Origin: Candidatus Limnocylindrales bacterium
GTDB lineage: Bacteria; Chloroflexota; Limnocylindria; Limnocylindrales; CSP1-4
Length of the DNA stretch: 64,000 nt
Assembly: GCA_044449785.1 (NCBI GenBank)
Contig: JBIOII010000002.1
Span: forward strand, 1,141 to 65,140
Direction: 5' to 3'
This document shows positions 7,820 to 14,972 of the stretch, piece by piece (position 1 is the stretch's first letter; each line of letters starts with the position of its first letter). A model generated the notes under the pieces. That model worked only from the letters and a program-made list of their open reading frames with translations. It did no database searches and had not been told where the DNA came from. The position numbers were made by a program, and so were the translations under genes.

Positions 7820-8161
7820 TCAGCTGACTGGCTTAGCGTACTGCGAGAGCCCGAACCTCGCCTCGAACTGCTCGGCGGGCATCGCCCCGACAACTGCCAT
7901 TGGCTGCTGGCCGGGGCGGAAGAAGGCGATGGTAGGGAGGGTCATTATCTGGAGGGCCTGCGAGACTCCCGGGTTCGCATCGACGTCCATCTTTACGACG
8001 TCTATCGACCCGGAGTATTTCTCGGCGATCCGCTCTAGCTCGGGCGCGACCATGCGGCACGGTCCGCACCACGATGCCCAGAAGTCGACGATGATCGGCC
8101 GTGCTGCGTTCAGTACGACCTCCTCGAACGTCTCGTCCGTGACTGCTTTGACTTCGGCCAC
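7820..8161 (-). CDS. trxA: thioredoxin
   Basis: Active site WASWCGPCR, 113 aa, typical TrxA length and layout. Confidence 0.95.
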   Translation of the reverse strand: MAEVKAVTDETFEEVVLNAARPIIVDFWASWCGPCRMVAPELERIAEKYSGSIDVVKMDVDANPGVSQALQIMTLPTIAFFRPGQQPMAVVGAMPAEQFEARFGLSQYAKPVS

Positions 8162-8206
8162 CTGGTGATGGTCCTTTCTACCTGACGGTCTTGACCGGCT
8201 CGAGTT

Positions 8207-8500
8207 TCAGCCAGCTATTGATTGGAGCAGCCGACACGCTTCGAGGATCCGGGGATCCGCGAGGCGATAGTAGATCGCATTGCCGTCCCGGCGGGTGAGC
8301 ACGAGGCCCGAATTCCGCAGGACCGCAAGGTGCTGGCTCATGTTCGGAACGTGGCATCCAACCCGGTCGGAAAGCTCGTGTACCGAAAGCTCGCCGTCGG
8401 CGAGCGACTGGAGAACGCACAGGCGCTTGGCATCGCCGAGGGCACGTGCCACCGCCGCACTTCGCTGCCTGACAATCTCCATGTCGCCAACTTCGAGCAT
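8207..8500 (-). CDS. ArsR/SmtB family transcriptional regulator
   Basis: Only the last 97 codons of track ORF 8207-9601 look real: LGDAKRLCVLQSLADGELSVHELSDRVGCHVPNMSQHLAVLRNSGLVLTRRDGNAIYYRL (wHTH). It lies directly upstream of trxA on the same strand. Confidence 0.88.
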   Translation of the reverse strand: MLEVGDMEIVRQRSAAVARALGDAKRLCVLQSLADGELSVHELSDRVGCHVPNMSQHLAVLRNSGLVLTRRDGNAIYYRLADPRILEACRLLQSIAG

Positions 8501-8617
8501 GCCCGAACCATACAACAGCTTGCGCAAAGACGCAAGCAGGTTGCAGGGAGTCGGTCGACCCGGATCCGGCGCTGCGTCGGGCCCGACGAGATAGACAGTT
8601 TTGGCTACGATGACCGC

Positions 8618-9694
8618 ATGGACGACGACGGCGGCTTCGGCGGCGGCTTCGGCGGTGAGTCGGGGCCCGGCTTTGGCGGCGACCCGCGCGATCCCCGGCT
8701 TGCCGGTGGGGCGGGCGGTATCGGCGGTCTCGGCGGGCTGGCCGGACTCGGCCCCGGCGGGCTGCAGGGCCTGGCCGGCATCCTGGGCGTCGGCGGCATG
8801 CAGGGTCAAGACGCCCGTGACCCGCGGGGAATGCGGATCGGCGATCGAGACTCGCGCGACGTTCGGACCCAGACGGGCCGCGACATGGCCGGCGACGGTG
8901 GGGGCGGAGAGAAGCTCGAGACGATCGACATCACCGGTGAAGGCAGGCCGGCGGGATCGAACACGACGCTCGAGCCGGCAACCGTCGCCATCGACTCGAC
9001 CGGGCTGACGCTTTCGATCGGGACCGGGCGGCCGATTCGAGCCGGCTTCCGCGATCTCAGCCTCATCGCGATCCAGCAGTCGACCGCACTTCTCGTTCTC
9101 GGCCAGGGCCCGGACTCGATGCCGTTCATGCTCGAGAAGTTCGGGGACCGTCTTGGGCCGATGGTTCGGCTGCTGCGTGAGCTCAGACTCAAGCAGCGTC
9201 TTTCCGACGGCCTGGTGAAGGTGCCCGCCGGCCCCGCCGAGCTGGTCGAGTTCGCCTGGGCGCGAACGGCCGACCCGATTGGTCCCGGTCCGGATGGGCC
9301 GGCGACCGCGACGACGGGCGTCGGCCAGTTGGTCGTTCATTCGTGGGGTTTCGTCGTGTGCCCGCTGGACGAGCGCGCCACCTGGATCCACTTCCGGCGC
9401 GCCTCGATCGCCACGGTCACCACGCCCAACCCCGGTGAGGTGGCAGTCGACGGCTCGCCCGGGACGCTGACGCTGCGGGGGCTCGGGTCGGCAGCCACGC
9501 GGATGCACGACACGCTCGCCAAGCTGCGCGACGGCGCCTTCGACGACGCAGCGGGTTTCGTCGAGGGGCTGATGCCTGACGCTCCCTTCGGGTTGCGCCA
9601 AAAGGCCTCGAGCCTGCTGGTGGACGGCCGCCCGACGCGCCCCGACGCTCGGCGACTCCGGCTGGCCGATCGTCGAGACCGCGGTGCTGGGTGA
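8618..9694 (+). CDS. hypothetical protein with Gly-rich N-terminus (probably the 5' part of a disrupted longer gene)
   Basis: Start placed at ATG 8618 (MDDDGGFGGGFGG...), because upstream codons overlap the ArsR gene on the other strand. No motif recognised. See the frameshift finding. Confidence 0.5.
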   Translation: MDDDGGFGGGFGGESGPGFGGDPRDPRLAGGAGGIGGLGGLAGLGPGGLQGLAGILGVGGMQGQDARDPRGMRIGDRDSRDVRTQTGRDMAGDGGGGEKLETIDITGEGRPAGSNTTLEPATVAIDSTGLTLSIGTGRPIRAGFRDLSLIAIQQSTALLVLGQGPDSMPFMLEKFGDRLGPMVRLLRELRLKQRLSDGLVKVPAGPAELVEFAWARTADPIGPGPDGPATATTGVGQLVVHSWGFVVCPLDERATWIHFRRASIATVTTPNPGEVAVDGSPGTLTLRGLGSAATRMHDTLAKLRDGAFDDAAGFVEGLMPDAPFGLRQKASSLLVDGRPTRPDARRLRLADRRDRGAG

Positions 9695-10379
9695 GCCGAC
9701 ATTTGCCGACAGCTACGGTTCGTTGTGCTCGACCGCCGGGCCGGCGGCTCCTCGTTGGGTCGCGATGTCGCCGGTCGATCCGGGCGGGACCGACTCGAAG
9801 ATCTGGTTCCTGATCGCCATGCCGGGCAACCTTGTCGCGCTCGAGCTGGTCACCGCCGGTGCGCACGCTACGTACTTCTACCGGGTCATGCCGCGAGCTC
9901 AGTACAACGGCGAGCCGCCCGAGAAGCTGGGGATAGGCGCGGAGCAGGCGGTCCGGGACGTCAGCGAGGCGCTGGTCGACTGCCGTTTCCTGCGCGAGCC
10001 GATGGCGCTCCCGGCCGATCAGCTGCGATTGCCGAAGTACCTGCGCTACCGACTGGCGCTGGCGGTACTTCCGACTCTCGCGTGGGCGCGAGGCAGGTTC
10101 GTGGCGCGGATCGTCCACCGCGACCCGGCCAGCTGGTCCGCGGCCGTGGCCGACCTGATTCGCTGGCACGCCACCGCTCGCGACGAGGCGGCGGAGTGGC
10201 CCGGCCGCGCGGCTCAGGAAGCCGCGATTTCGCAGGCCGGCGACGACGACGGCGACGATTCGGGCGCGGCCGCCGATAGCGAGGACCATTCCACGGGCGA
10301 CGATTCGGGCGCGGCCGATACCCGCGTGGCGGTCAACCCTGCAACGCCGAACATCAAGCCTTCGGGCACAACTGGCTAG
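9684..10379 (+). CDS. hypothetical protein (probably the 3' part of the same gene)
   Basis: The ORF starts at GTG 9684 and overlaps the previous stop by 11 nt. Its frame reads protein-like sequence (APTLGDSGWPIVETA) before any start codon. Confidence 0.45.
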   Translation: MLGEPTFADSYGSLCSTAGPAAPRWVAMSPVDPGGTDSKIWFLIAMPGNLVALELVTAGAHATYFYRVMPRAQYNGEPPEKLGIGAEQAVRDVSEALVDCRFLREPMALPADQLRLPKYLRYRLALAVLPTLAWARGRFVARIVHRDPASWSAAVADLIRWHATARDEAAEWPGRAAQEAAISQAGDDDGDDSGAAADSEDHSTGDDSGAADTRVAVNPATPNIKPSGTTG

Positions 10380-10391
10380 GAGGACCGGACG

Positions 10392-10850
10392 ATGCCGACT
10401 TTCAAGCACGCGTGCCCGTACTGCGACAAGTTCATCGACAGGGCCGTGGCGGCATGCCCGTACTGCGGCCAGGTGGACCCGTTCGCGCCGAAGCGCTGCC
10501 AGAACTGCCGCAAGGACGTCGAGGACCCGGCCTGGACGGTTTGCCCGTCGTGCGGCCAGTCGCTGATAGCGCCGCCGCCCGGTGCCGCGACTTCCGGCAC
10601 GGGTGCCGGGGCGCCGGCCGCCACGGCCGCTTCCGCCCCGACCGCCCCGGCGCCGGCTGCCCAACCCGCCACTGCCGGCTCCGGGGCCGCGGCTCAGAAC
10701 GCTCCGCCGCCGCCTCCGCCGCGGCCGCCACTCAACCCGGATGCTGCGGCGCCCGTTCTGAAGTCGGCGGGTGCGTGCAGCGGCTGCGGCGCCGCGCTCC
10801 CGGCTGGCGCCCGCTTCTGCACCGTGTGCGGGACACTTGCCGGGGCCTAG
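10392..10850 (+). CDS. double zinc-ribbon domain protein with Pro/Ala-rich linker
   Basis: CPYCDKF..(10)..CPYCG, CQNC..(12)..CPSCG and C-terminal CSGCGAALPAGARFCTVCG. RBS AGGAGG 5-10 nt upstream. It starts 13 nt after the preceding stop. Confidence 0.75.
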   Translation: MPTFKHACPYCDKFIDRAVAACPYCGQVDPFAPKRCQNCRKDVEDPAWTVCPSCGQSLIAPPPGAATSGTGAGAPAATAASAPTAPAPAAQPATAGSGAAAQNAPPPPPPRPPLNPDAAAPVLKSAGACSGCGAALPAGARFCTVCGTLAGA

Positions 10851-10886
10851 ACCGAAGCCGGTTGGCAGCGAAGGCGCGCGGCGCCG

Positions 10887-11510
10887 CTACGCGACCTTGT
10901 TGCCGCAGTTGCCGCAGAAGCGGGTGTCGGCCGCCAGCTCGGCGCCGCACTTGCTGCACTTGGCCGTGCCCAACGGCGTCCCGCAGTTGCCGCAGAACTT
11001 CTCGCTGCCGACCGGCTTGCCGCAGTTGGGGCATTCGGTGGCCCGGGCGCTGAGGTCGCCTGAGAAGAGCTGCTGACCCTGCATCGCCTGCTTCATCTGC
11101 TGAAGCTCCACGGACGAGCGTTCGGCCTCCATCTCGGTGGCCAGGTTCGGCGCGCAGTTGACGCACAGGCCGCGCTGCTTGTTGAAGCAGGTCTCGTCGA
11201 CCCAGTTATTGCACCGTACGCAGCGGTGGAACAGCGGCATGATCTCATTGGAGGCTTTTTCGAGCGCCTTATCCCGCGCGTCGCGGTCGGTGACGTTCTG
11301 GGCCGTGGAGGCCGCGTTGGAAGCTCCCCAGAAACGGCCGCCCAGGATGCTGCTGGCGCCGCCGAGGAGCGTTGCGCCCGTGCCGAGGAGGTTCTTCTGA
11401 TACTCGCTTCGGTAGCCGCTGCCGCAGATTTCGCAGCGGAACTCGAATTGGTAGCCCTGGTTGGTCGAGAGATCCTGGTAGTTGCTGGTGAACGGGGTGA
11501 AGCCCGGCAT
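10887..11510 (-). CDS. zinc-ribbon domain protein
   Basis: Only the last 207 codons of track ORF 10887-12059 are taken (ATG at 11510, MPGFTPFTSNYQ...). Motifs: CEICG, CVRCNNWVDETCFNKQRGLCVNC, CPNCGKPVGSEKFCGNCG, CSKCGAELAADTRFCGNCG. Confidence 0.75.
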   Translation of the reverse strand: MPGFTPFTSNYQDLSTNQGYQFEFRCEICGSGYRSEYQKNLLGTGATLLGGASSILGGRFWGASNAASTAQNVTDRDARDKALEKASNEIMPLFHRCVRCNNWVDETCFNKQRGLCVNCAPNLATEMEAERSSVELQQMKQAMQGQQLFSGDLSARATECPNCGKPVGSEKFCGNCGTPLGTAKCSKCGAELAADTRFCGNCGNKVA

Positions 11511-11613
11511 TCGACCCACTCCTGAGTGGCGGCCGCGTGGCGGCCTCGGCTGCGACGTTGCGCCTTGAATGGTAACGCCACGGGCGGGGGTTGGGGCGCC
11601 TGAGCAGCGCCGG

Positions 11614-13296
11614 TTAGGGCAGAACGGCTGGCTCCAATCGAGCCAGGATGACGGCGTGAGGGGTGCAGGTGTCGGGCCCGGTGTCCATGCCGCCCGAGCA
11701 ATGCCCGCCGGGCTCCCATCGGAACAGGAAGAGCCCATGAATTGACTCGCCGCCACCGACTGGCCCGCCGCCGAACTCATGATAGGCGCCGAGCTGTGCG
11801 TCCATCTCATGGCCGCCGGGCTCCGACCCGAGCCACGAGACCTCGTAGCATGGCGCGCCGGCCACGTCGCAGGCATCTGCCCCCATGCCGGTGATCCATG
11901 CATCCAGGACGAAGAGGTAGGGCTGGCCCGAGGCCGTTGCCGCGGCCTTGGCGTCTGGCACGGTCCAGACCAGCCCGCCATCCGACCGAGCCGTGAGTGG
12001 ACCGAGGAGCGTGGCAGGAACGATCTCAGCGTAGGCCACATTCTGCTGGCCGGAGCCACTGCAACCGGTGCAGGGACCGCCGATCAACTGCTCGTGAATG
12101 AGGTATCTGCCGACCAGGTAGTGCGGGTCCAACTTCTCGAGAGCCGATAGCTCGGCGTCGGTCAGGGCGCGGTTGCCAGGCCCAATGAGCCCCGTCGGGG
12201 CGATTGGGAGGGTTGATGTAGGGGCGACGATCGGGGTGGCCGGCGGGCCGGTCGTGGGTGTTTGAGTCACGGCCGCAGAAGCGCTCGGCGCCGGCATCGA
12301 GATGTCGGCGACCTGCGCCAGGACTCGCCAGGCAGTGCAGCCGCGATTGTCCTGCGGCGAAGTGTTTGGGCATTGCTCAGTCACGCCGCGGACAACGTAG
12401 ACGCCGTGGATGCCGCCGGGGCTCCACGGCACTCCGTCGATCTGGTGGACGCCGCCGGCTTCGACGTGACGTTGAGGGACCGGTAGAAGAGGTGAGCTCG
12501 ATCCCGCGCGCTCCGAAGATCCGGACTCGTTCTGCGCCGCCATTGAGGCATCGACTTGTGAGTCGGCGAACCAGTCGTCGTAGGGACAGTCGTCGCCGTT
12601 CGGGTTGAGGGCGTCGCCGGCTGCCGGGACGGACGCGCACGACACAGTCAGTTCAGTGGCTCCCAGCCAGCCTTCGACCACGAATGTCTTGCCGCCCACC
12701 GGCCAATCGTCGGCCACCTTGAAGGCGTAGCCGGTGGACGCCGGCGTGATCTGACCGAGGAGCCCGAGATACCCTGGGGCAAGGTACCGGAAGGCGAACG
12801 TGCCGGTTGCGGTCGGGCCCGGAAGCTGCGCTGCCAGTGTCGCGCCCATGACGCAAACCTGCGAAGGCATGCTCTCCACGACACCAACGGTCGAGTACCG
12901 GTTCATAGGGCAGACGTCCGTTCTGGCATCGATGGTCACGGACGCGACCACCGCCGAGTTGATCGCAAGCGGCGGCCCGGCCATGAGAGAAGCCAGCTCG
13001 GCAGTCGTCAGGGGGCGGCCGGCAGGGTAGCCGTTCGATGCCGCGGGCCCCGGGTTGAAGGCCGGGAGGGCGAGGGCGATGGCGACGATCGCCACGAGCA
13101 GGACAACAACCCCCGCCGCCGCGAGTCGGGGAGGGTGCCGGACGACTCGCGGCCACCGGAGCCCGGCTCTGGGCTCTTGCACGCCATCGAGCGCAGCCGC
13201 AACGCCCGTCAGCAGCCCCTCGGGGAGGCCGCCGGCCGAGCGTCGGGCCAGATGCTCGCGGATTGCCGAGTCGATAGGCGGCAGATGCTCGTTCAT
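11614..13296 (-). CDS. putative anti-sigma factor, single-pass membrane protein with large Cys-containing extracytoplasmic domain
   Basis: Start MNEHLPPIDSAIREHL at 13296 overlaps the sigma-factor stop (ATGA). One TM segment, AAAGVVVLLVAIVAIALALPAF. The call rests on position and topology, not homology. Confidence 0.6.
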   Translation of the reverse strand: MNEHLPPIDSAIREHLARRSAGGLPEGLLTGVAAALDGVQEPRAGLRWPRVVRHPPRLAAAGVVVLLVAIVAIALALPAFNPGPAASNGYPAGRPLTTAELASLMAGPPLAINSAVVASVTIDARTDVCPMNRYSTVGVVESMPSQVCVMGATLAAQLPGPTATGTFAFRYLAPGYLGLLGQITPASTGYAFKVADDWPVGGKTFVVEGWLGATELTVSCASVPAAGDALNPNGDDCPYDDWFADSQVDASMAAQNESGSSERAGSSSPLLPVPQRHVEAGGVHQIDGVPWSPGGIHGVYVVRGVTEQCPNTSPQDNRGCTAWRVLAQVADISMPAPSASAAVTQTPTTGPPATPIVAPTSTLPIAPTGLIGPGNRALTDAELSALEKLDPHYLVGRYLIHEQLIGGPCTGCSGSGQQNVAYAEIVPATLLGPLTARSDGGLVWTVPDAKAAATASGQPYLFVLDAWITGMGADACDVAGAPCYEVSWLGSEPGGHEMDAQLGAYHEFGGGPVGGGESIHGLFLFRWEPGGHCSGGMDTGPDTCTPHAVILARLEPAVLP

Positions 13297-13835
13297 CGCG
13301 ACTCCTTCGCCAGCGCCGATTCCAGCGCCGCCCGAGCGCGGTGGAGTCGGGACTTCACCGTGCCGATCGGTACGGCGAGCACGGCAGCGATCTCGGCCAC
13401 GGAGCGCTCCTGGAGATGGTGCATGACCAGGACGCCGCGATCGTCGATCGACAACCTGGCGAAGGCGCGATCGAAGACATCGGCGTCGGCCGCCCGGTCG
13501 TCGATGGCGCGATCGGTCGATGCCGGCTCGCGATCCTCGATCGGGTCTAGCAGTCGGATCTCGCGCACGCTCGTCCGGCGGCGCCGGCGGAGCTGACTCC
13601 GGCAGGCGTTGAGGTTGATTCGCCCCAGCCATGCATCGAAGAGATCGGGATCCCGCAGGGCGTCGCGATGGCACCAGGCGGAGACGAAAGTCTCCTGGGT
13701 CGCGTCTGCTGCGTCGGCCTCATCCCCGAGGATGGCGAGCGAAGTGCGGAACACGGCATCGATCCGGCTGCGGACCAGGGAATCGAAGGCAGCGCGATCG
13801 CCCGATCGGGCTCTCTCGACGAGCGCTCGCTCCAT
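13293..13835 (-). CDS. ECF-type RNA polymerase sigma factor (sigma-70 family)
   Basis: Region 2 (DATQETFVSAWCHRDALRDPDLFDAWLGRINLNACRS) and region 4 HTH (RGVLVMHHLQERSVAEIAAVLAVPIGTVKSRLHRAR). Confidence 0.9.
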   Translation of the reverse strand: MERALVERARSGDRAAFDSLVRSRIDAVFRTSLAILGDEADAADATQETFVSAWCHRDALRDPDLFDAWLGRINLNACRSQLRRRRRTSVREIRLLDPIEDREPASTDRAIDDRAADADVFDRAFARLSIDDRGVLVMHHLQERSVAEIAAVLAVPIGTVKSRLHRARAALESALAKESR

Positions 13836-13943
13836 CCGCCTCCCTCTGGTGTCCTACCTGTATCGATGCTGGCGGCTCAGCCGGGGTTCCATCTGAATTG
13901 GCGGCCCGCTCGCCCCCGAGTCGCCGCCTGGCATACTCGCACC

Positions 13944-14972
13944 ATGACCGACCACATCGTCCCTCTAGAACGCTTCCACGAGGCGAGGCGCGTCCTCGAT
14001 GGCCGCATCGAACGAACGCCTATTCTGTCGTCGGCGACGGCGGGGCGCGTCCTCGCCGCGCGCGGCATCCGTGTGGCCGGCGGGCGCGTTTACGCCAAGG
14101 CGGAGAATCTCCAGAGGACGGGCGCCTTCAAGATCCGCGGCGCGATCAACAAGCTGAATGCGCTGACGCCTGCGGAACGAGCCGCCGGCGTGATTGCGTT
14201 CTCGACCGGTAACCACGCGCAGGGAGTGGCGCTCGCGGCCCGCGAGGCCGGGGTGCACGCCGTCGTGATGATGCCGGCCGGTGCAGTTCGGTCAAAGGTC
14301 GATTCATGCCGCGGTTACGGTGCCGAGGTGATCCTCTTTGGCGAGTCCACGGGCGAGACGTGGGGGCGAACCGAAGAATTGGCGGCCGAGCGAGGCCTGG
14401 TTTTCATTCCGCCATTCAACGATCCCTGGATCCTGGCGGGGCAGGGGACCATTGGCCTCGAGATCCTGGACGACCTCCCCGACGTGGACGTGGTCGTGGC
14501 GGGCATAGGCGGTGGTGCGCTTTGCACTGGTACCGCGGCCGCGATCAAGGAGACTCGGCCCGGCGTACGCGTCTACGGCGTGGAGCCCGAACGATCGAAC
14601 GCGCTGTCGCTCGCGCTCGAGCGAAACGAGATCGTGCGGATTACGCCGGTTTCGGTGGCGGACGGGCTGAATGCGCCGTTTGCCGGCGACTTGACGATGG
14701 CGATGGGCCGGCGTTACCCGGACGGGATCGTGCTGCTCGACGAGGGAACAATCCTTGCCGGCGTCCGATTCGCGCTCGAACGGATGAAGCAGCTGATTGA
14801 ACCGGCCGGAGCCGCTGCCCTCGCCGCGGTTCTCTTCGGCAGGATACCGATCCGCGACGGCGAACGAGTCTGTGTGGTCCTCAGCGGCGGCAACGTGGAG
14901 GTGGGGCGGCTGGGCGAGTTGCTTGCCGGCGCGGCGCCGCTCGACGTGCCGCCGGTGGTCGGTCAGGCGTAG
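13944..14972 (+). CDS. threonine/serine dehydratase (PLP-dependent, short catabolic type)
   Basis: PLP lysine motif TGAFKIRGA, FSTGNHAQGVALAA, and glycine loop GIGGGAL. Start moved to ATG 13944 (MTDHIVPLERF), because the upstream part overlaps the sigma gene region. Confidence 0.85.
   Translation: MTDHIVPLERFHEARRVLDGRIERTPILSSATAGRVLAARGIRVAGGRVYAKAENLQRTGAFKIRGAINKLNALTPAERAAGVIAFSTGNHAQGVALAAREAGVHAVVMMPAGAVRSKVDSCRGYGAEVILFGESTGETWGRTEELAAERGLVFIPPFNDPWILAGQGTIGLEILDDLPDVDVVVAGIGGGALCTGTAAAIKETRPGVRVYGVEPERSNALSLALERNEIVRITPVSVADGLNAPFAGDLTMAMGRRYPDGIVLLDEGTILAGVRFALERMKQLIEPAGAAALAAVLFGRIPIRDGERVCVVLSGGNVEVGRLGELLAGAAPLDVPPVVGQA

What the first reader, a model, noticed from the sequence alone, without database searches (positions are those of the whole stretch)
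8618..13835. Convergent unknown-function cluster: ECF sigma, Cys-repeat anti-sigma and zinc-ribbon protein facing a Gly-rich protein and a double zinc-ribbon protein
Minus-strand unit: ECF sigma, then a 560-aa single-pass anti-sigma candidate coupled by an ATGA overlap, then a 207-aa zinc-ribbon protein. Plus-strand unit: a roughly 590-aa (frameshifted) protein with a GGFGGG-rich N-terminus, then a 152-aa zinc-ribbon protein.

The two zinc-ribbon genes end tail to tail 36 nt apart and share nearly the same C-terminal ribbon: CSGCGAALPAGARFCTVCG versus CSKCGAELAADTRFCGNCG.

The extracytoplasmic part of the anti-sigma candidate contains three similar modules. Each is a hydrophobic strand followed by a Cys pair:
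- KTFVVEGWLGATELTVSCASVPAAGDALNPNGDDCPYDDW
- HGVYVVRGVTEQCPNTSPQDNRGCTAWRVLAQV
- HGLFLFRWEPGGHCSGGMDTGPDTCTPHAVILARL

I recognise none of the four non-sigma proteins as a characterised family. The arrangement looks like a self-contained envelope-signalling module.
Basis: partly seen in the sequence, partly recalled or inferred. Interest (0 to 1): 0.6.

Follow-up and report, generated by a model that had tools for sequence, protein, structure and literature searches.

The report
Sigma pair beside PH/zinc-ribbon cassette
The five genes are not one signalling module: a genus-specific sigma/anti-sigma pair sits next to the local, frameshifted copy of an undescribed three-gene cassette (a double-PH-domain protein plus two zinc-ribbon proteins) found widely in bacteria and archaea.

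Summary
Limnocylindrales) MAG. They belong to two separate units.

**Unit 1: ECF sigma factor plus 560-aa single-pass membrane protein (ATGA overlap)**
- A promoter, GATG(G/C)AACC-N15-GCATCGAT, is conserved in 31/31 related loci and occurs once in this genome.
- The ectodomain is two homologous Cys-rich domains (hhalign E 2e-14). Relatives carry 2-4 copies. It matches no Pfam or PDB entry.
- Strong matches are confined to one genus, and some members of that genus have lost the pair.

**Unit 2: a three-gene cassette**
- A is the frameshifted, roughly 585-aa protein. An AF2 model of the intact ortholog's core has pLDDT 93. It shows two PH-like domains plus a conserved domain with no structural match in PDB or BFVD.
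- B is the 152-aa multi-ribbon protein.
- C is the 207-aa protein with a Cys-rich N-domain, a coiled coil and a double zinc ribbon.
- A, B and C stay adjacent, in several gene orders, in Bacillota-like, Spirochaetota and Thermoplasmatota loci.
- Of 80 metagenome loci carrying A, 61 also carry B and C, and none carries an ECF sigma.

**Independence of the two units**
- Of the 24 other same-genus genomes, 17 have both units and 4-5 have only the cassette.
- One has only the sigma pair and one has neither.

The cassette's function is unknown.

The parts
13862..13893 (-). Putative autoregulatory ECF-type promoter. The -35 box GATGGAACC lies at 13885-13893, followed by a 15-nt spacer and the -10 box GCATCGAT at 13862-13869. 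The RBS AGGGAGG is at 13839-13845.
   Evidence: The motif GATG(C/G)AACC-N15-GCATCGAT is conserved upstream of the sigma gene in 31/31 related loci with invariant spacing. It occurs once in the window and once in the whole MAG. The PWM score is 30.2 against 18.9 for the next best site. Sequence read.
13293..13835 (-). ECF (group 4) sigma-70 factor, 180 aa
   Evidence: Pfam Sigma70_r2 (E 3e-11) and Sigma70_r4_2 (E 3e-14). NCBIfam TIGR02937 scores 78.7 against a cutoff of 42.9. No equivalog-level model reaches its cutoff.
11614..13296 (-). Candidate anti-sigma factor, 560 aa. Cytoplasmic head: residues 1-58 (13123-13296). TM helix: residues 59-80 (13057-13122). Ectodomain D1: residues 88-338 (12283-13035). 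Pro/Thr/Ala-rich linker. Ectodomain D2: residues 365-560 (11617-12204).
   Evidence: ATGA overlap with the sigma stop codon. The AF2 model has mean pLDDT 75, with helices at 10-20, 28-37 and 59-80 and two beta-rich domains. D1 and D2 are homologous: hhalign probability 98.3%, E 2.3e-14. No Pfam, NCBIfam or PADLOC hit. No significant PDB match by sequence or fold. The near-invariant head motif PPID..IR..LARRS.GR.P is seen.
11511..11570 (-). Conserved leader of gene C. It holds the hairpin GGCCG-CCACG-CGGCC (11531-11545) and the RBS GGAGTGGG (11515-11522).
   Evidence: The same ~60 nt precede gene C in same-genus loci whether or not the sigma/anti-sigma pair lies upstream. Sequence read. No Rfam match.
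10887..11510 (-). Cassette gene C, 207 aa. It has an N-terminal Cys-rich domain (invariant C26, C29, C97, C108, C116), a Gly-rich segment, a helical/coiled-coil stretch and a C-terminal double zinc ribbon.
   Evidence: Pfam DZR scores 40.8 bits against a cutoff of 27.3. It is 67-92% identical across 80 Limnocylindrales species. Full-length homologs at 37-41% identity sit next to A-family genes in a Bacillota-like locus, Thermospira and a Thermoplasmatota archaeon.
10392..10850 (+). Cassette gene B, 152 aa. It has two N-terminal zinc ribbons, a Pro/Ala-rich linker and a C-terminal ribbon.
   Evidence: Pfam DZR scores 41.9 bits and Zn_ribbon_3 41.9 bits. It starts 12 nt after the stop codon of A, with an AGGAGGA RBS. 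Homologs of ~110 aa at 32-35% identity, with an invariant Cys pattern, lie in the cassettes of L109, L114 and L117.
8618..10379 (+). Cassette gene A, frameshifted here (frames 8618-9694 and 9684-10379, 2-nt gap at 9648/9649). The Gly-rich disordered head is about 8618-8920. PH-like domain 1 is about 8924-9208 and PH-like domain 2 about 9239-9571. The conserved C-terminal alpha/beta domain is about 9587-10240. The acidic tail runs to 10379. Domain limits are transferred from the L031 ortholog and are approximate.
   Evidence: The 2-nt gap against three relatives is seen. The gene is one ORF in 58/62 loci. The AF2 model of the intact ortholog's core has pLDDT 93.0 and pTM 0.89. Foldseek matches tandem-PH modules: BBS5, Pob3/Spt16 middle domains, IRS-1 and Dok7 PH-PTB, with E 1.7e-4 to 1e-3 and probability 0.9-1.0. 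The profile matches the pan-prokaryotic ~445-aa family: hhalign probability 99.96%, E 9e-39.

Best explanation
The region is a juxtaposition of two unrelated units.

**Unit 1 (11614-13893, minus strand): ECF sigma plus cognate membrane anti-sigma**
- A two-gene operon transcribed from the sigma's own promoter (shown: conserved and unique motif).
- The anti-sigma's short, conserved cytoplasmic head would hold the sigma at the membrane (inferred).
- Two tandem, disulfide-type Cys-rich extracytoplasmic domains of no recognised family would sense an unknown envelope or external cue and release the sigma (inferred).
- The regulon appears to be essentially the operon itself.
- Strong matches are confined to one genus, the pair is often deleted, and the sensor domain count varies from 2 to 4 (shown).

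**Unit 2 (8618-11570): the local copy of a three-gene cassette found in many bacterial and archaeal phyla**
- A has tandem PH-like domains plus a highly conserved C-terminal domain. B is a small multi-zinc-ribbon protein. C has a Cys-rich domain, a coiled coil and a double zinc ribbon.
- The three genes stay adjacent through several rearrangements (shown).
- The proteins most likely form one cytoplasmic complex. The two zinc-ribbon proteins would dock on the PH scaffold, and A's C-terminal domain, rich in invariant Arg, His and Glu, would be the ligand-binding or catalytic part (inferred, function unknown).

**State in this genome**
- The A-B unit is inverted, so it converges on C.
- A carries lineage-specific Gly-rich and acidic tails.
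- A is interrupted by a 2-nt frameshift that is either very recent or an assembly error.
For: **Independence of the two units**
- In 80 species-level loci anchored on C, A and B accompany C in two orientations. The convergent form is as here. The co-directional form C>A>B is seen in L080, L083-087, L094, L097-099, L102, L105 and L107.
- The sigma/anti-sigma pair is present only in the closest clade. It is missing from L041, L045, L048, L055, L058, L065 and L104. L046 and L060 retain truncated sigma remnants.
- L026 has the sigma pair directly beside ArsR, with A, B and C absent.
- Whole-genome phyletic patterns among the 24 other same-genus genomes: 17 have both units. G003, G007, G010 and G017 have only the cassette, and G022 has partial contig-edge evidence for it. 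G002 has only the pair and G024 has neither.
- In a class sample of 301 genomes and 57 genera, the anti-sigma family is strong only in this genus. A occurs in 28 genomes of 10 genera.

**Cassette beyond the class**
- The A profile finds 541 cluster representatives.
- Named relatives come from Bacillota, Actinobacteria, Thermotogota, Spirochaetota (cultured Thermospira aquatica), CPR, Thermoplasmatota and Asgard archaea.
- B and/or C homologs lie beside A in L109, L110, L112, L113, L114 and L117.
- Of 80 metagenome loci with A, 61 carry B and C, and 0 of 80 carry an ECF sigma. The same scan detects unrelated ECF sigmas in control loci.

**Sigma unit**
- ATGA coupling, promoter, conserved head and TM helix, and domain repeats with variable copy number.

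**Folds**
-.
Against: - No experiment or complex model links the sigma to the 560-aa protein. Its head matches no anti-sigma-domain family in Pfam at E <= 0.1 and is modelled with low confidence.
- C lies 103 nt downstream of the anti-sigma gene on the same strand, with no canonical terminator. Read-through from the sigma promoter into C cannot be excluded.
- A different ECF/anti-sigma pair lies two genes from the cassette in L109. An earlier scan note reports a third such neighbourhood.
- Within the class the whole neighbourhood (folE, threonine dehydratase, ArsR, Trx, DinB) is also syntenic. Adjacency there is weak evidence on its own.
- A physical complex of A, B and C is inferred only from gene linkage.
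- The genome is 64.5% complete, so the claim that the promoter is unique holds only for the part assembled.
Confidence: 0.8

Rival explanations
1. One reading: all five genes form one envelope-signalling module. The ECF sigma, released by the Cys-rich anti-sigma, would control the zinc-ribbon and Gly-rich proteins as its dedicated output.
For: - The five genes are adjacent in 17 of 24 same-genus genomes.
- C follows the anti-sigma gene on the same strand, after 103 nt and without a canonical terminator.
- Another ECF/anti-sigma pair lies near the cassette in L109.
- A similar neighbourhood was noted elsewhere in this scan (e1-733137).
Against: - The two units have independent presence/absence patterns.
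- No ECF sigma lies within the fetched flanks of any of 80 metagenome cassette loci, and the control scan is positive.
- The sigma-type promoter is found only in front of the sigma gene, and none lies upstream of A or C.
- C keeps the same leader whether or not the sigma pair is present.
Confidence: 0.07
2. The 560-aa protein is not an anti-sigma factor. It would be a surface or envelope protein that is simply the sigma's co-transcribed target, with the sigma controlled some other way (for example by transcription alone or by another partner).
For: - No anti-sigma-domain family matches its head.
- The head has only two short predicted helices, at low pLDDT.
- The ectodomain evolves fast and varies in repeat number like a surface protein.
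Against: - The protein is strictly paired and translationally coupled with the sigma in every locus that has either gene intact.
- The cytoplasmic head is the best-conserved non-enzymatic part of a fast-evolving protein.
- The sigma is a minimal 180-aa ECF with no regulatory extension.
- Short two-helix anti-sigma domains are known, such as the class II domain of CnrY (from my own knowledge, not tested here).
Confidence: 0.2
3. The A-B-C cassette is a mobile conflict or anti-phage defence system rather than a cellular housekeeping-type complex.
For: - Its distribution is patchy within the class: 28 of 301 genomes.
- It occurs across bacteria and archaea at 40-55% identity, which suggests horizontal transfer.
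- In Thermospira it lies among small ORFs, an HTH gene and an integrase-like gene.
- Streamlined relatives have lost it.
Against: - There are no PADLOC hits.
- No nuclease, NTPase or toxin-type domain is detected.
- Purifying selection is very strong: C is 67-92% identical across a class in which the anti-sigma is 26-63% identical.
- Its chromosomal position among metabolic genes is stable in Limnocylindrales.
- Most sampled contexts are not defence islands.
Confidence: 0.15
4. In this organism cassette gene A is a genuine, very recent pseudogene, so the cassette is being lost. The alternative is that the 2-nt gap is an assembly or consensus error in the MAG.
For: - The 2-nt gap is in the deposited sequence.
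- The cassette is dispensable and repeatedly lost in relatives.
- Other MAGs also show split A genes: L037, L086, L092, L105.
Against: - There is only one lesion. Both halves remain 64-91% identical to orthologs, with no further stop codons.
- B and C are intact.
- Split copies in other MAGs may equally be assembly errors.
Confidence: 0.4

Closest known systems
ECF sigma / single-pass anti-sigma pairs (e.g. SigE-RseA, SigW-RsiW; short class II anti-sigma domain of CnrH-CnrY)
   Same: - A minimal two-domain sigma (regions 2 and 4).
- The downstream gene is translationally coupled and encodes a single-pass membrane protein with a small cytoplasmic head and a large outside domain.
- The operon is preceded by an ECF-style AAC-type -35 box and a short -10 box, consistent with autoregulation.
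   Different: - The head matches no anti-sigma-domain family and has only two predicted helices.
- The ectodomain is a lineage-restricted Cys-rich domain with no significant PDB match. The best Foldseek E is 0.09, to OB-fold-like proteins.
- It is tandemly repeated 2-4 times, with variable copy number between species.
- Binding and release have not been tested.
Tandem (double) PH modules: FACT Spt16/Pob3 middle domains, Rtt106, BBS5, IRS-1 and Dok7 PH-PTB
   Same: - The N-terminal half of A's core is two consecutive PH-like beta-sandwich-plus-helix domains.
- Foldseek probability is 0.9-1.0 and E is 1.7e-4 to 1e-3.
   Different: - Sequence identity is 8-12%, and no Pfam PH or bacterial-PH family hit is found.
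- The TM-scores over the whole query are low (0.15-0.25), so the similarity is at domain level only.
- A has an additional ~200-residue conserved domain with no structural match.
- It is prokaryotic and genetically tied to two zinc-ribbon proteins.
Double zinc ribbon proteins (Pfam DZR PF12773, Zn_Ribbon_1 PF13240)
   Same: B and C match these models above the gathering score. The C-terminal ribbon they share follows the CxxCG...FCxxCG pattern common to simple zinc ribbons.
   Different: - DZR is a generic module with no assigned function.
- C's conserved N-terminal 150 residues (GYQFEFRC...RC..C..WVDETC...LC) and B's N-terminal MPxxKHPCxYC pattern are specific to this cassette and match no family.
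PH-plus-zinc-finger adaptors such as ESCRT-II Vps36 (GLUE domain with NZF fingers); archaeal CheF (PF04283), as suggested in earlier scan notes
   Same: Both combine a PH-type scaffold with small zinc-binding modules in one functional unit.
   Different: - This is an analogy only, recalled from my own knowledge and from earlier notes.
- No sequence match was found. Pfam at E <= 10 gives nothing for A.
- Neither Vps36 nor CheF (7ovp) appears among the top 50 Foldseek matches.

Membership tests
ECF (group 4) sigma-70 factors | Sigma-70 regions 2 and 4 only, about 170-200 aa | tested here: met
   PF04542 (E 3e-11) and PF08281 (E 3e-14). TIGR02937 scores 78.7 against a cutoff of 42.9. The protein is 180 aa.
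ECF (group 4) sigma-70 factors | Membership of a named equivalog (SigE, SigM, SigW, etc.) | tested here: not met
   All equivalog and subfamily NCBIfam models score far below their cutoffs. For example, TIGR02983 scores 104.6 against 141.55.
ECF (group 4) sigma-70 factors | Autoregulatory promoter with an AAC-containing -35 box and a short -10 box | tested here: met
   GATG(G/C)AACC-N15-GCATCGAT is present in 31/31 loci and is unique in this genome. Its activity has not been tested.
Anti-sigma factors (class I anti-sigma domain, zf-HC2/RskA type) | Recognisable N-terminal anti-sigma domain | tested here: not met
   No Pfam or NCBIfam hit at E <= 0.1 for the 560-aa protein. AF2 shows only two short helices before the TM segment.
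Anti-sigma factors (functional class) | Gene adjacent to, co-oriented with and co-inherited with the sigma gene; single-pass membrane topology | tested here: met
   ATGA overlap. The two genes are paired wherever both are intact. There is one predicted TM helix at residues 59-80.
Anti-sigma factors (functional class) | Physical binding and inhibition of the cognate sigma | not testable with these tools
Double zinc ribbon (Pfam PF12773) | Score above the gathering threshold | tested here: met
   C scores 40.8 bits and B 41.9 bits, against a cutoff of 27.3.
PH-like fold superfamily | Seven-stranded beta-sandwich capped by a C-terminal helix, confirmed by structural match | tested here: met
   The AF2 model (pLDDT 93) shows two such units. 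Foldseek matches tandem-PH structures with probability up to 1.00. No Pfam PH or bPH sequence family matches.
PH / zinc-ribbon trio cassette (undescribed; defined by this and earlier scan work) | A-family gene adjacent to B-family and C-family genes, each with full-length homology | tested here: met
   hhalign of the window clade against the broad A family gives probability 99.96% and E 9e-39. C is 37-41% identical and B 32-35% identical to cassette partners in other phyla. B and C lie beside A in 61/80 metagenome loci.
Known anti-phage defence systems (PADLOC-DB 2.0) | Any component matching a defence-system model | tested here: not met
   No hits at E <= 0.1 for any of the five proteins.

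The most novel reading that the evidence does not exclude
The A-B-C trio is a previously unrecognised, horizontally exchanged prokaryotic machine. A tandem-PH scaffold would carry a new ligand-binding or enzymatic domain and work with two dedicated zinc-ribbon array proteins. It would be present in hundreds of bacterial and archaeal species and unrelated to any characterised pathway. The Limnocylindrales branch would have added intrinsically disordered Gly-rich and acidic tails to it.
Probability: 0.35. Interest if true: 0.75.

Novelty: categorically new. Interest (0 to 1): 0.5.

Why it matters
**The correction**
- The five-gene 'envelope-signalling module' is two units with separate histories. 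No regulatory link between the sigma factor and the zinc-ribbon genes should be annotated.

**The sigma pair**
- It is a new variant of a familiar kind of system.
- It offers a lineage-specific, disulfide-type sensor domain with variable copy number, plus a clean one-promoter regulon that is easy to test.

**The cassette**
- This is the larger point. It is three strongly conserved proteins of unknown function with no Pfam family for the largest one.
- Its largest protein (A) models with high confidence.
- It is shared between distant bacteria and archaea, including at least one cultured species, so it can be studied at the bench.

**What this window adds**
- A divergent Chloroflexota branch of the cassette.
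- Direct evidence that nearby ECF sigma genes are only neighbours.
- Evidence that the cassette is dispensable: it has been lost in genome-streamlined relatives.

Tried and rejected
**Searches that found nothing**
- Pfam, NCBIfam and PADLOC scans of all the proteins gave only the sigma domains and generic zinc ribbons.
- Profile searches of PDB sequences with A, C and the anti-sigma gave nothing significant. The only hits were bL32-type ribbon matches at E about 0.02.
- Foldseek of the anti-sigma model against PDB gave a best E of 0.09, with only vague OB-fold resemblance, so I do not claim a fold.
- Foldseek of A against viral structures gave nothing at E <= 0.001.
- Rfam found nothing in 8000-14200.
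- The simple promoter/terminator scan found no more than chance.
- Three literature searches found no description of the cassette. One paper gave context on sigma-factor loss in Limnocylindria (PMC13212565).

**Ideas tested and dropped**
- Pairwise BLASTP of D1 against D2 was not significant. Only the profile-profile comparison showed the duplication.
- The ~670-aa A variants are not fusions to a zinc-ribbon protein. Their extra C-terminal part has no Cys pattern.
Alignment to three orthologs instead shows a 2-nt gap, and the repeated CCCGACGC encodes the conserved RPTRP.
- ArsR-Trx as the cassette's divergent regulator is unlikely. The spacing varies from ~0.1 to ~7 kb and the orientation changes between loci.

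**Not possible**

Full report
**Organism and gene map**

The window comes from a 64.5%-complete MAG of 2.3 Mb in 198 contigs. Homologs carry NCBI names 'Candidatus Limnocylindrales bacterium', so the organism belongs to Chloroflexota, class Limnocylindria. G+C content is about 68%.

- ECF sigma at 13293-13835(-).
- A 560-aa protein at 11614-13296(-). Its ATG overlaps the sigma stop codon as ATGA.
- A 207-aa zinc-ribbon protein at 10887-11510(-).
- A Gly-rich gene on the other strand, split into 8618-9694 and 9684-10379.
- A 152-aa zinc-ribbon gene at 10392-10850. It starts 12 nt after the Gly-rich gene, behind an AGGAGGA ribosome-binding site.

The two ribbon genes end 36 nt apart. Flanking genes are ArsR-Trx and a DinB-like gene on one side, and threonine dehydratase, a small ORF and folE on the other.

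**The frameshift**

Alignment with three orthologous loci shows a 2-nt gap in the window between 9648 and 9649 (GACGC--TCGGC). The two halves form one ORF in 58 of 62 related loci. The gene therefore encodes one protein of about 585 aa that is interrupted here.

An earlier scan note proposed a 10-nt near-duplication as the cause. The alignment does not support that, because the repeated CCCGACGC is simply the conserved RPTRP coding sequence.

I could not decide between a real recent mutation and an assembly error.

**Family searches**

Pfam and NCBIfam identify the sigma as a generic ECF. Regions 2 and 4 match, and TIGR02937 is above its cutoff, but no equivalog model reaches its cutoff. The only other matches are generic zinc-ribbon models on the two small proteins. 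The 560-aa protein and the Gly-rich protein match nothing, and PADLOC gives nothing for any of them.

**Synteny inside the class**

I fetched about 13 kb around the 560-aa gene in 15 same-genus genomes, and 20 kb around the 207-aa gene in 80 species-level genomes. I mapped all local proteins onto these loci with tblastn. Three results matter.

*First*, the 207-aa gene (C), the Gly-rich gene (A) and the 152-aa gene (B) travel together at all depths sampled.
- They occur in two arrangements: the convergent one seen here, and a co-directional C>A>B order in 13 more distant loci.
- They also occur in neighbourhoods that lack folE, ArsR-Trx and the other local genes (L075, L081, L088-L090).

*Second*, the sigma gene and the 560-aa gene occur only in the closest clade.
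- They are absent from seven fairly close loci: L041, L045, L048, L055, L058, L065 and L104.
- L046 and L060 retain only truncated sigma remnants.

*Third*, one same-genus genome (L026) has the sigma pair lying directly against ArsR, with A, B and C gone.

Whole-genome searches confirm independent inheritance. Among the 24 other same-genus genomes:
- 17 have both units.
- G003, G007, G010 and G017 have only the trio. G022 is partial, with a contig-edge copy of A, no C and no anti-sigma.
- G002 has only the sigma pair.
- G024 has neither.
- All 16 streamlined ~1.1-Mb genomes of the sister family have neither.

In a sample of 301 genomes from 57 genera of the class:
- The 560-aa family is strong only in this genus. 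Four other genera show weak single-domain matches.
- A occurs patchily, in 28 genomes of 10 genera.

**The sigma unit**

The 130 nt upstream of the sigma gene contain GATG(C/G)AACC, exactly 15 nt, then GCATCGAT, in 31 of 31 loci. In the window this lies at 13862-13893(-), about 20 nt upstream of a strong ribosome-binding site.
- The motif occurs once in the window and once in the assembled genome.
- A position-weight scan scores it at 30.2. The next best site scores 18.9 and has the wrong spacing.
- This is the signature of an autoregulated ECF operon with a very small regulon. No copy precedes A or C.

The ~60 nt immediately upstream of C hold a GGCCG-CCACG-CGGCC hairpin and a GGAGTGGG ribosome-binding site. 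They are the same in same-genus loci with and without the sigma pair. C therefore carries its own leader, although read-through from the sigma operon cannot be excluded.

The 560-aa protein has four notable features.
- *A strongly conserved head.* The near-invariant motif is PPID..IR..LARRS.GR.P..L.
- *One predicted TM helix*, at residues 59-80.
- *Two beta-rich outside domains.* The AF2 model has mean pLDDT 75, with the domains mostly at 85-95.
- *Homologous domains.* D1 (88-338) and D2 (365-560) are related: hhalign gives probability 98.3% and E 2.3e-14, although pairwise BLAST misses it.

Cys counts are even in most orthologs, and the Cys pairs flank loops. This fits extracytoplasmic disulfides (inference).

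Across species the protein has 2 to 4 copies of the domain and ranges from 450 to 1089 aa. It is only 26-63% identical within the genus, whereas the sigma is 72-86% identical.

Foldseek finds no significant PDB match. The best E is 0.09, and the weak matches are OB-fold proteins.

I conclude that the protein is probably the cognate anti-sigma factor, with a sensor domain that matches no known family. It fails the sequence test for a classical anti-sigma domain, and binding is untested.

**The cassette**

An AF2 model of the intact ortholog's core (L031, with 35 sequences in the alignment) is excellent: pLDDT 93.0 and pTM 0.89. It shows two PH-like domains followed by an alpha/beta domain of about 200 residues.
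- Foldseek matches the first half to tandem-PH modules: BBS5, Pob3 and Spt16 middle domains, IRS-1 and Dok7 PH-PTB, and Rtt106. E values are 1.7e-4 to 1e-3.
- Nothing in PDB or BFVD matches the C-terminal domain.

A profile of the Limnocylindrales proteins finds 541 cluster representatives among 1.84 billion proteins. Many are full-length proteins of about 440 aa. Homologs of one of them carry names from:
- Bacteria: Bacillota, Actinobacteria/Coriobacteriia, Fervidobacterium, Ca. Saccharicenans, Ca. Roizmanbacteria, Spirochaetales and the cultured Thermospira aquatica.
- Archaea: Thermoplasmatota and Njordarchaeota.

All are 'hypothetical' and none has a Pfam domain.

Profile-profile comparison ties the window's clade to this broad family: probability 99.96%, E 9e-39, 403 columns. 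The shared C-terminal motifs are:
- WF..PGN.VA.E ... ATY.FR
- (N/R)F(R/L)REP..LP
- F(I/V)(G/A)R(V/I)(I/V)H

Gene contexts of distant members show the same partners:

| Locus | Arrangement around A |
|---|---|
| L109 | A > 108-aa ribbon protein > 221-aa DZR protein |
| L113 | 214-aa DZR protein > A |
| L110 | A ... 222-aa DZR protein |
| L112 | A, then two extra genes, then 218-aa DZR protein |
| L114 (Thermospira) | A > CsgG/FlgO-like lipoprotein > 109-aa protein > 224-aa DZR protein |
| L117 (Thermoplasmatota) | 112-aa protein > 229-aa DZR protein > A |

- L111 and L116 lack these partners. In L115 the contig ends just after A, so downstream partners cannot be assessed.
- The ~220-aa proteins align with C over their whole length at 37-41% identity, including the N-terminal PFT.NY.D.S...G.QF.F.C..C motif.
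- The ~110-aa proteins align with B at 32-35% identity, with an invariant Cys pattern.

In 80 metagenome loci retrieved with the broad A profile, the partner counts are as follows:

| Partners found beside A | Loci |
|---|---|
| Both B and C | 61 |
| C only | 3 |
| B only | 2 |
| Neither (mostly A at the end of a short contig) | 14 |

Several gene orders occur, including convergent ones. None of the 80 loci (775 kb in total) contains an ECF sigma detectable with two ECF queries. The same scan does find unrelated ECF sigmas at 31-34% identity in control loci.

So the cassette is a real, widely distributed three-gene unit. The sigma pair is only a local neighbour.

Earlier notes of this scan describe the same trio in other genomes. 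I treat them as leads. The statements above rest on my own calls.

**Lineage-specific features of the local copy**
- A has a Gly-rich disordered head of about 95 aa (FGG and DxRDPRG repeats) and an acidic tail of about 60 aa ending in a conserved KPSGTxG. Both are missing from the ~440-aa forms elsewhere.
- B has replaced its middle ribbon with a Pro/Ala-rich linker.
- B's last ribbon has become very like C's last ribbon.

**How it most likely works**

*Unit 1* (most steps inferred). The anti-sigma head sequesters the sigma at the membrane. An unknown extracytoplasmic signal acting on the Cys-rich domains releases it. The sigma then transcribes its own operon from the unique promoter.

*Unit 2.* Conserved linkage through rearrangements and very strong purifying selection argue that A, B and C act together, probably as a cytoplasmic complex.
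- C is 67-92% identical across a class in which the anti-sigma is 26-63% identical.
- The zinc ribbons would act as docking modules on the PH scaffold.
- A's C-terminal domain has many invariant Arg, His, Glu and aromatic residues, which suggests a binding or active site.
- What the complex binds or does is unknown.
- Its patchy distribution, its loss in streamlined genomes and its spread across domains of life show that it is accessory and horizontally mobile.
- I found no support for a defence role.

**Verdict**

The five-gene interpretation is not, although its sigma/anti-sigma part is reasonable. The sigma pair is a new variant of a known kind. The cassette has no characterised counterpart in the libraries and papers I could search.

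Noticed in passing
window 10775-10831 and 10903-10959: The coding sequences of the C-terminal ribbons of B and C form a 57-nt inverted repeat, 75% complementary, flanking the 36-nt convergent gap. It could fold in read-through transcripts or promote gene conversion between the two ribbons.
   Followed up: partly
window 11531-11545 (-): A GGCCG-CCACG-CGGCC hairpin lies just upstream of gene C's ribosome-binding site. It is conserved across the genus whether or not the sigma operon lies upstream. It could be a terminator for the upstream operon or a leader structure of C. It has no Rfam match.
   Followed up: partly
window ~10355-10376; orthologs in L028-L068: Protein A of this genus ends in a conserved KPSGT(x)G motif after a variable acidic tail. 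This could be a short docking motif. It is absent from the ~440-aa forms in other phyla.
   Followed up: no
L030, L036, L040, L043, L061, L079 (between genes C and B): The convergent gap between C and B is 36 nt in the window. It holds insertions of 0.5-1.3 kb in several relatives and about 4.4 kb in L079, so it is a recurrent insertion site. An earlier scan note mentions a repeat array between the ribbon genes in another genome.
   Followed up: no
L046 4115-4405; L060 420-533: Truncated remnants of the ECF sigma gene lie directly upstream of gene C, with the anti-sigma gene gone. These look like deletion scars, showing that the pair was lost rather than never present in those lineages.
   Followed up: partly
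G016:C10:37514-39016 and G011:C37:9948-10628: In two relatives the anti-sigma repeat region contains an in-frame stop codon (TAG or TGA). This may reflect decay or assembly errors in the repeated domains.
   Followed up: no
L114 6372-7274 (Thermospira aquatica CP073355): In the cultured spirochaete the cassette is interrupted by a CsgG/FlgO-like lipoprotein gene. It lies among small ORFs, an HTH gene and an integrase-like gene, so it may sit on a mobile element.
   Followed up: no
P0424, P0447 and other ~670-aa homologs: A subset of A-family proteins carries an extra C-terminal region of about 230 aa with no Cys pattern and no annotation. It is a further uncharacterised domain fused to the scaffold.
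   Followed up: partly
L109 8970-10722: A different ECF sigma with a DUF4179/DUF5643 anti-sigma lies two genes downstream of the cassette in a Bacillota-like contig. This is the only other ECF neighbour among the non-Limnocylindrales loci I sampled.
   Followed up: partly
In relatives the spacing to A varies from ~0.1 to ~7 kb, so a regulatory link to the cassette is unlikely.
   Followed up: partly
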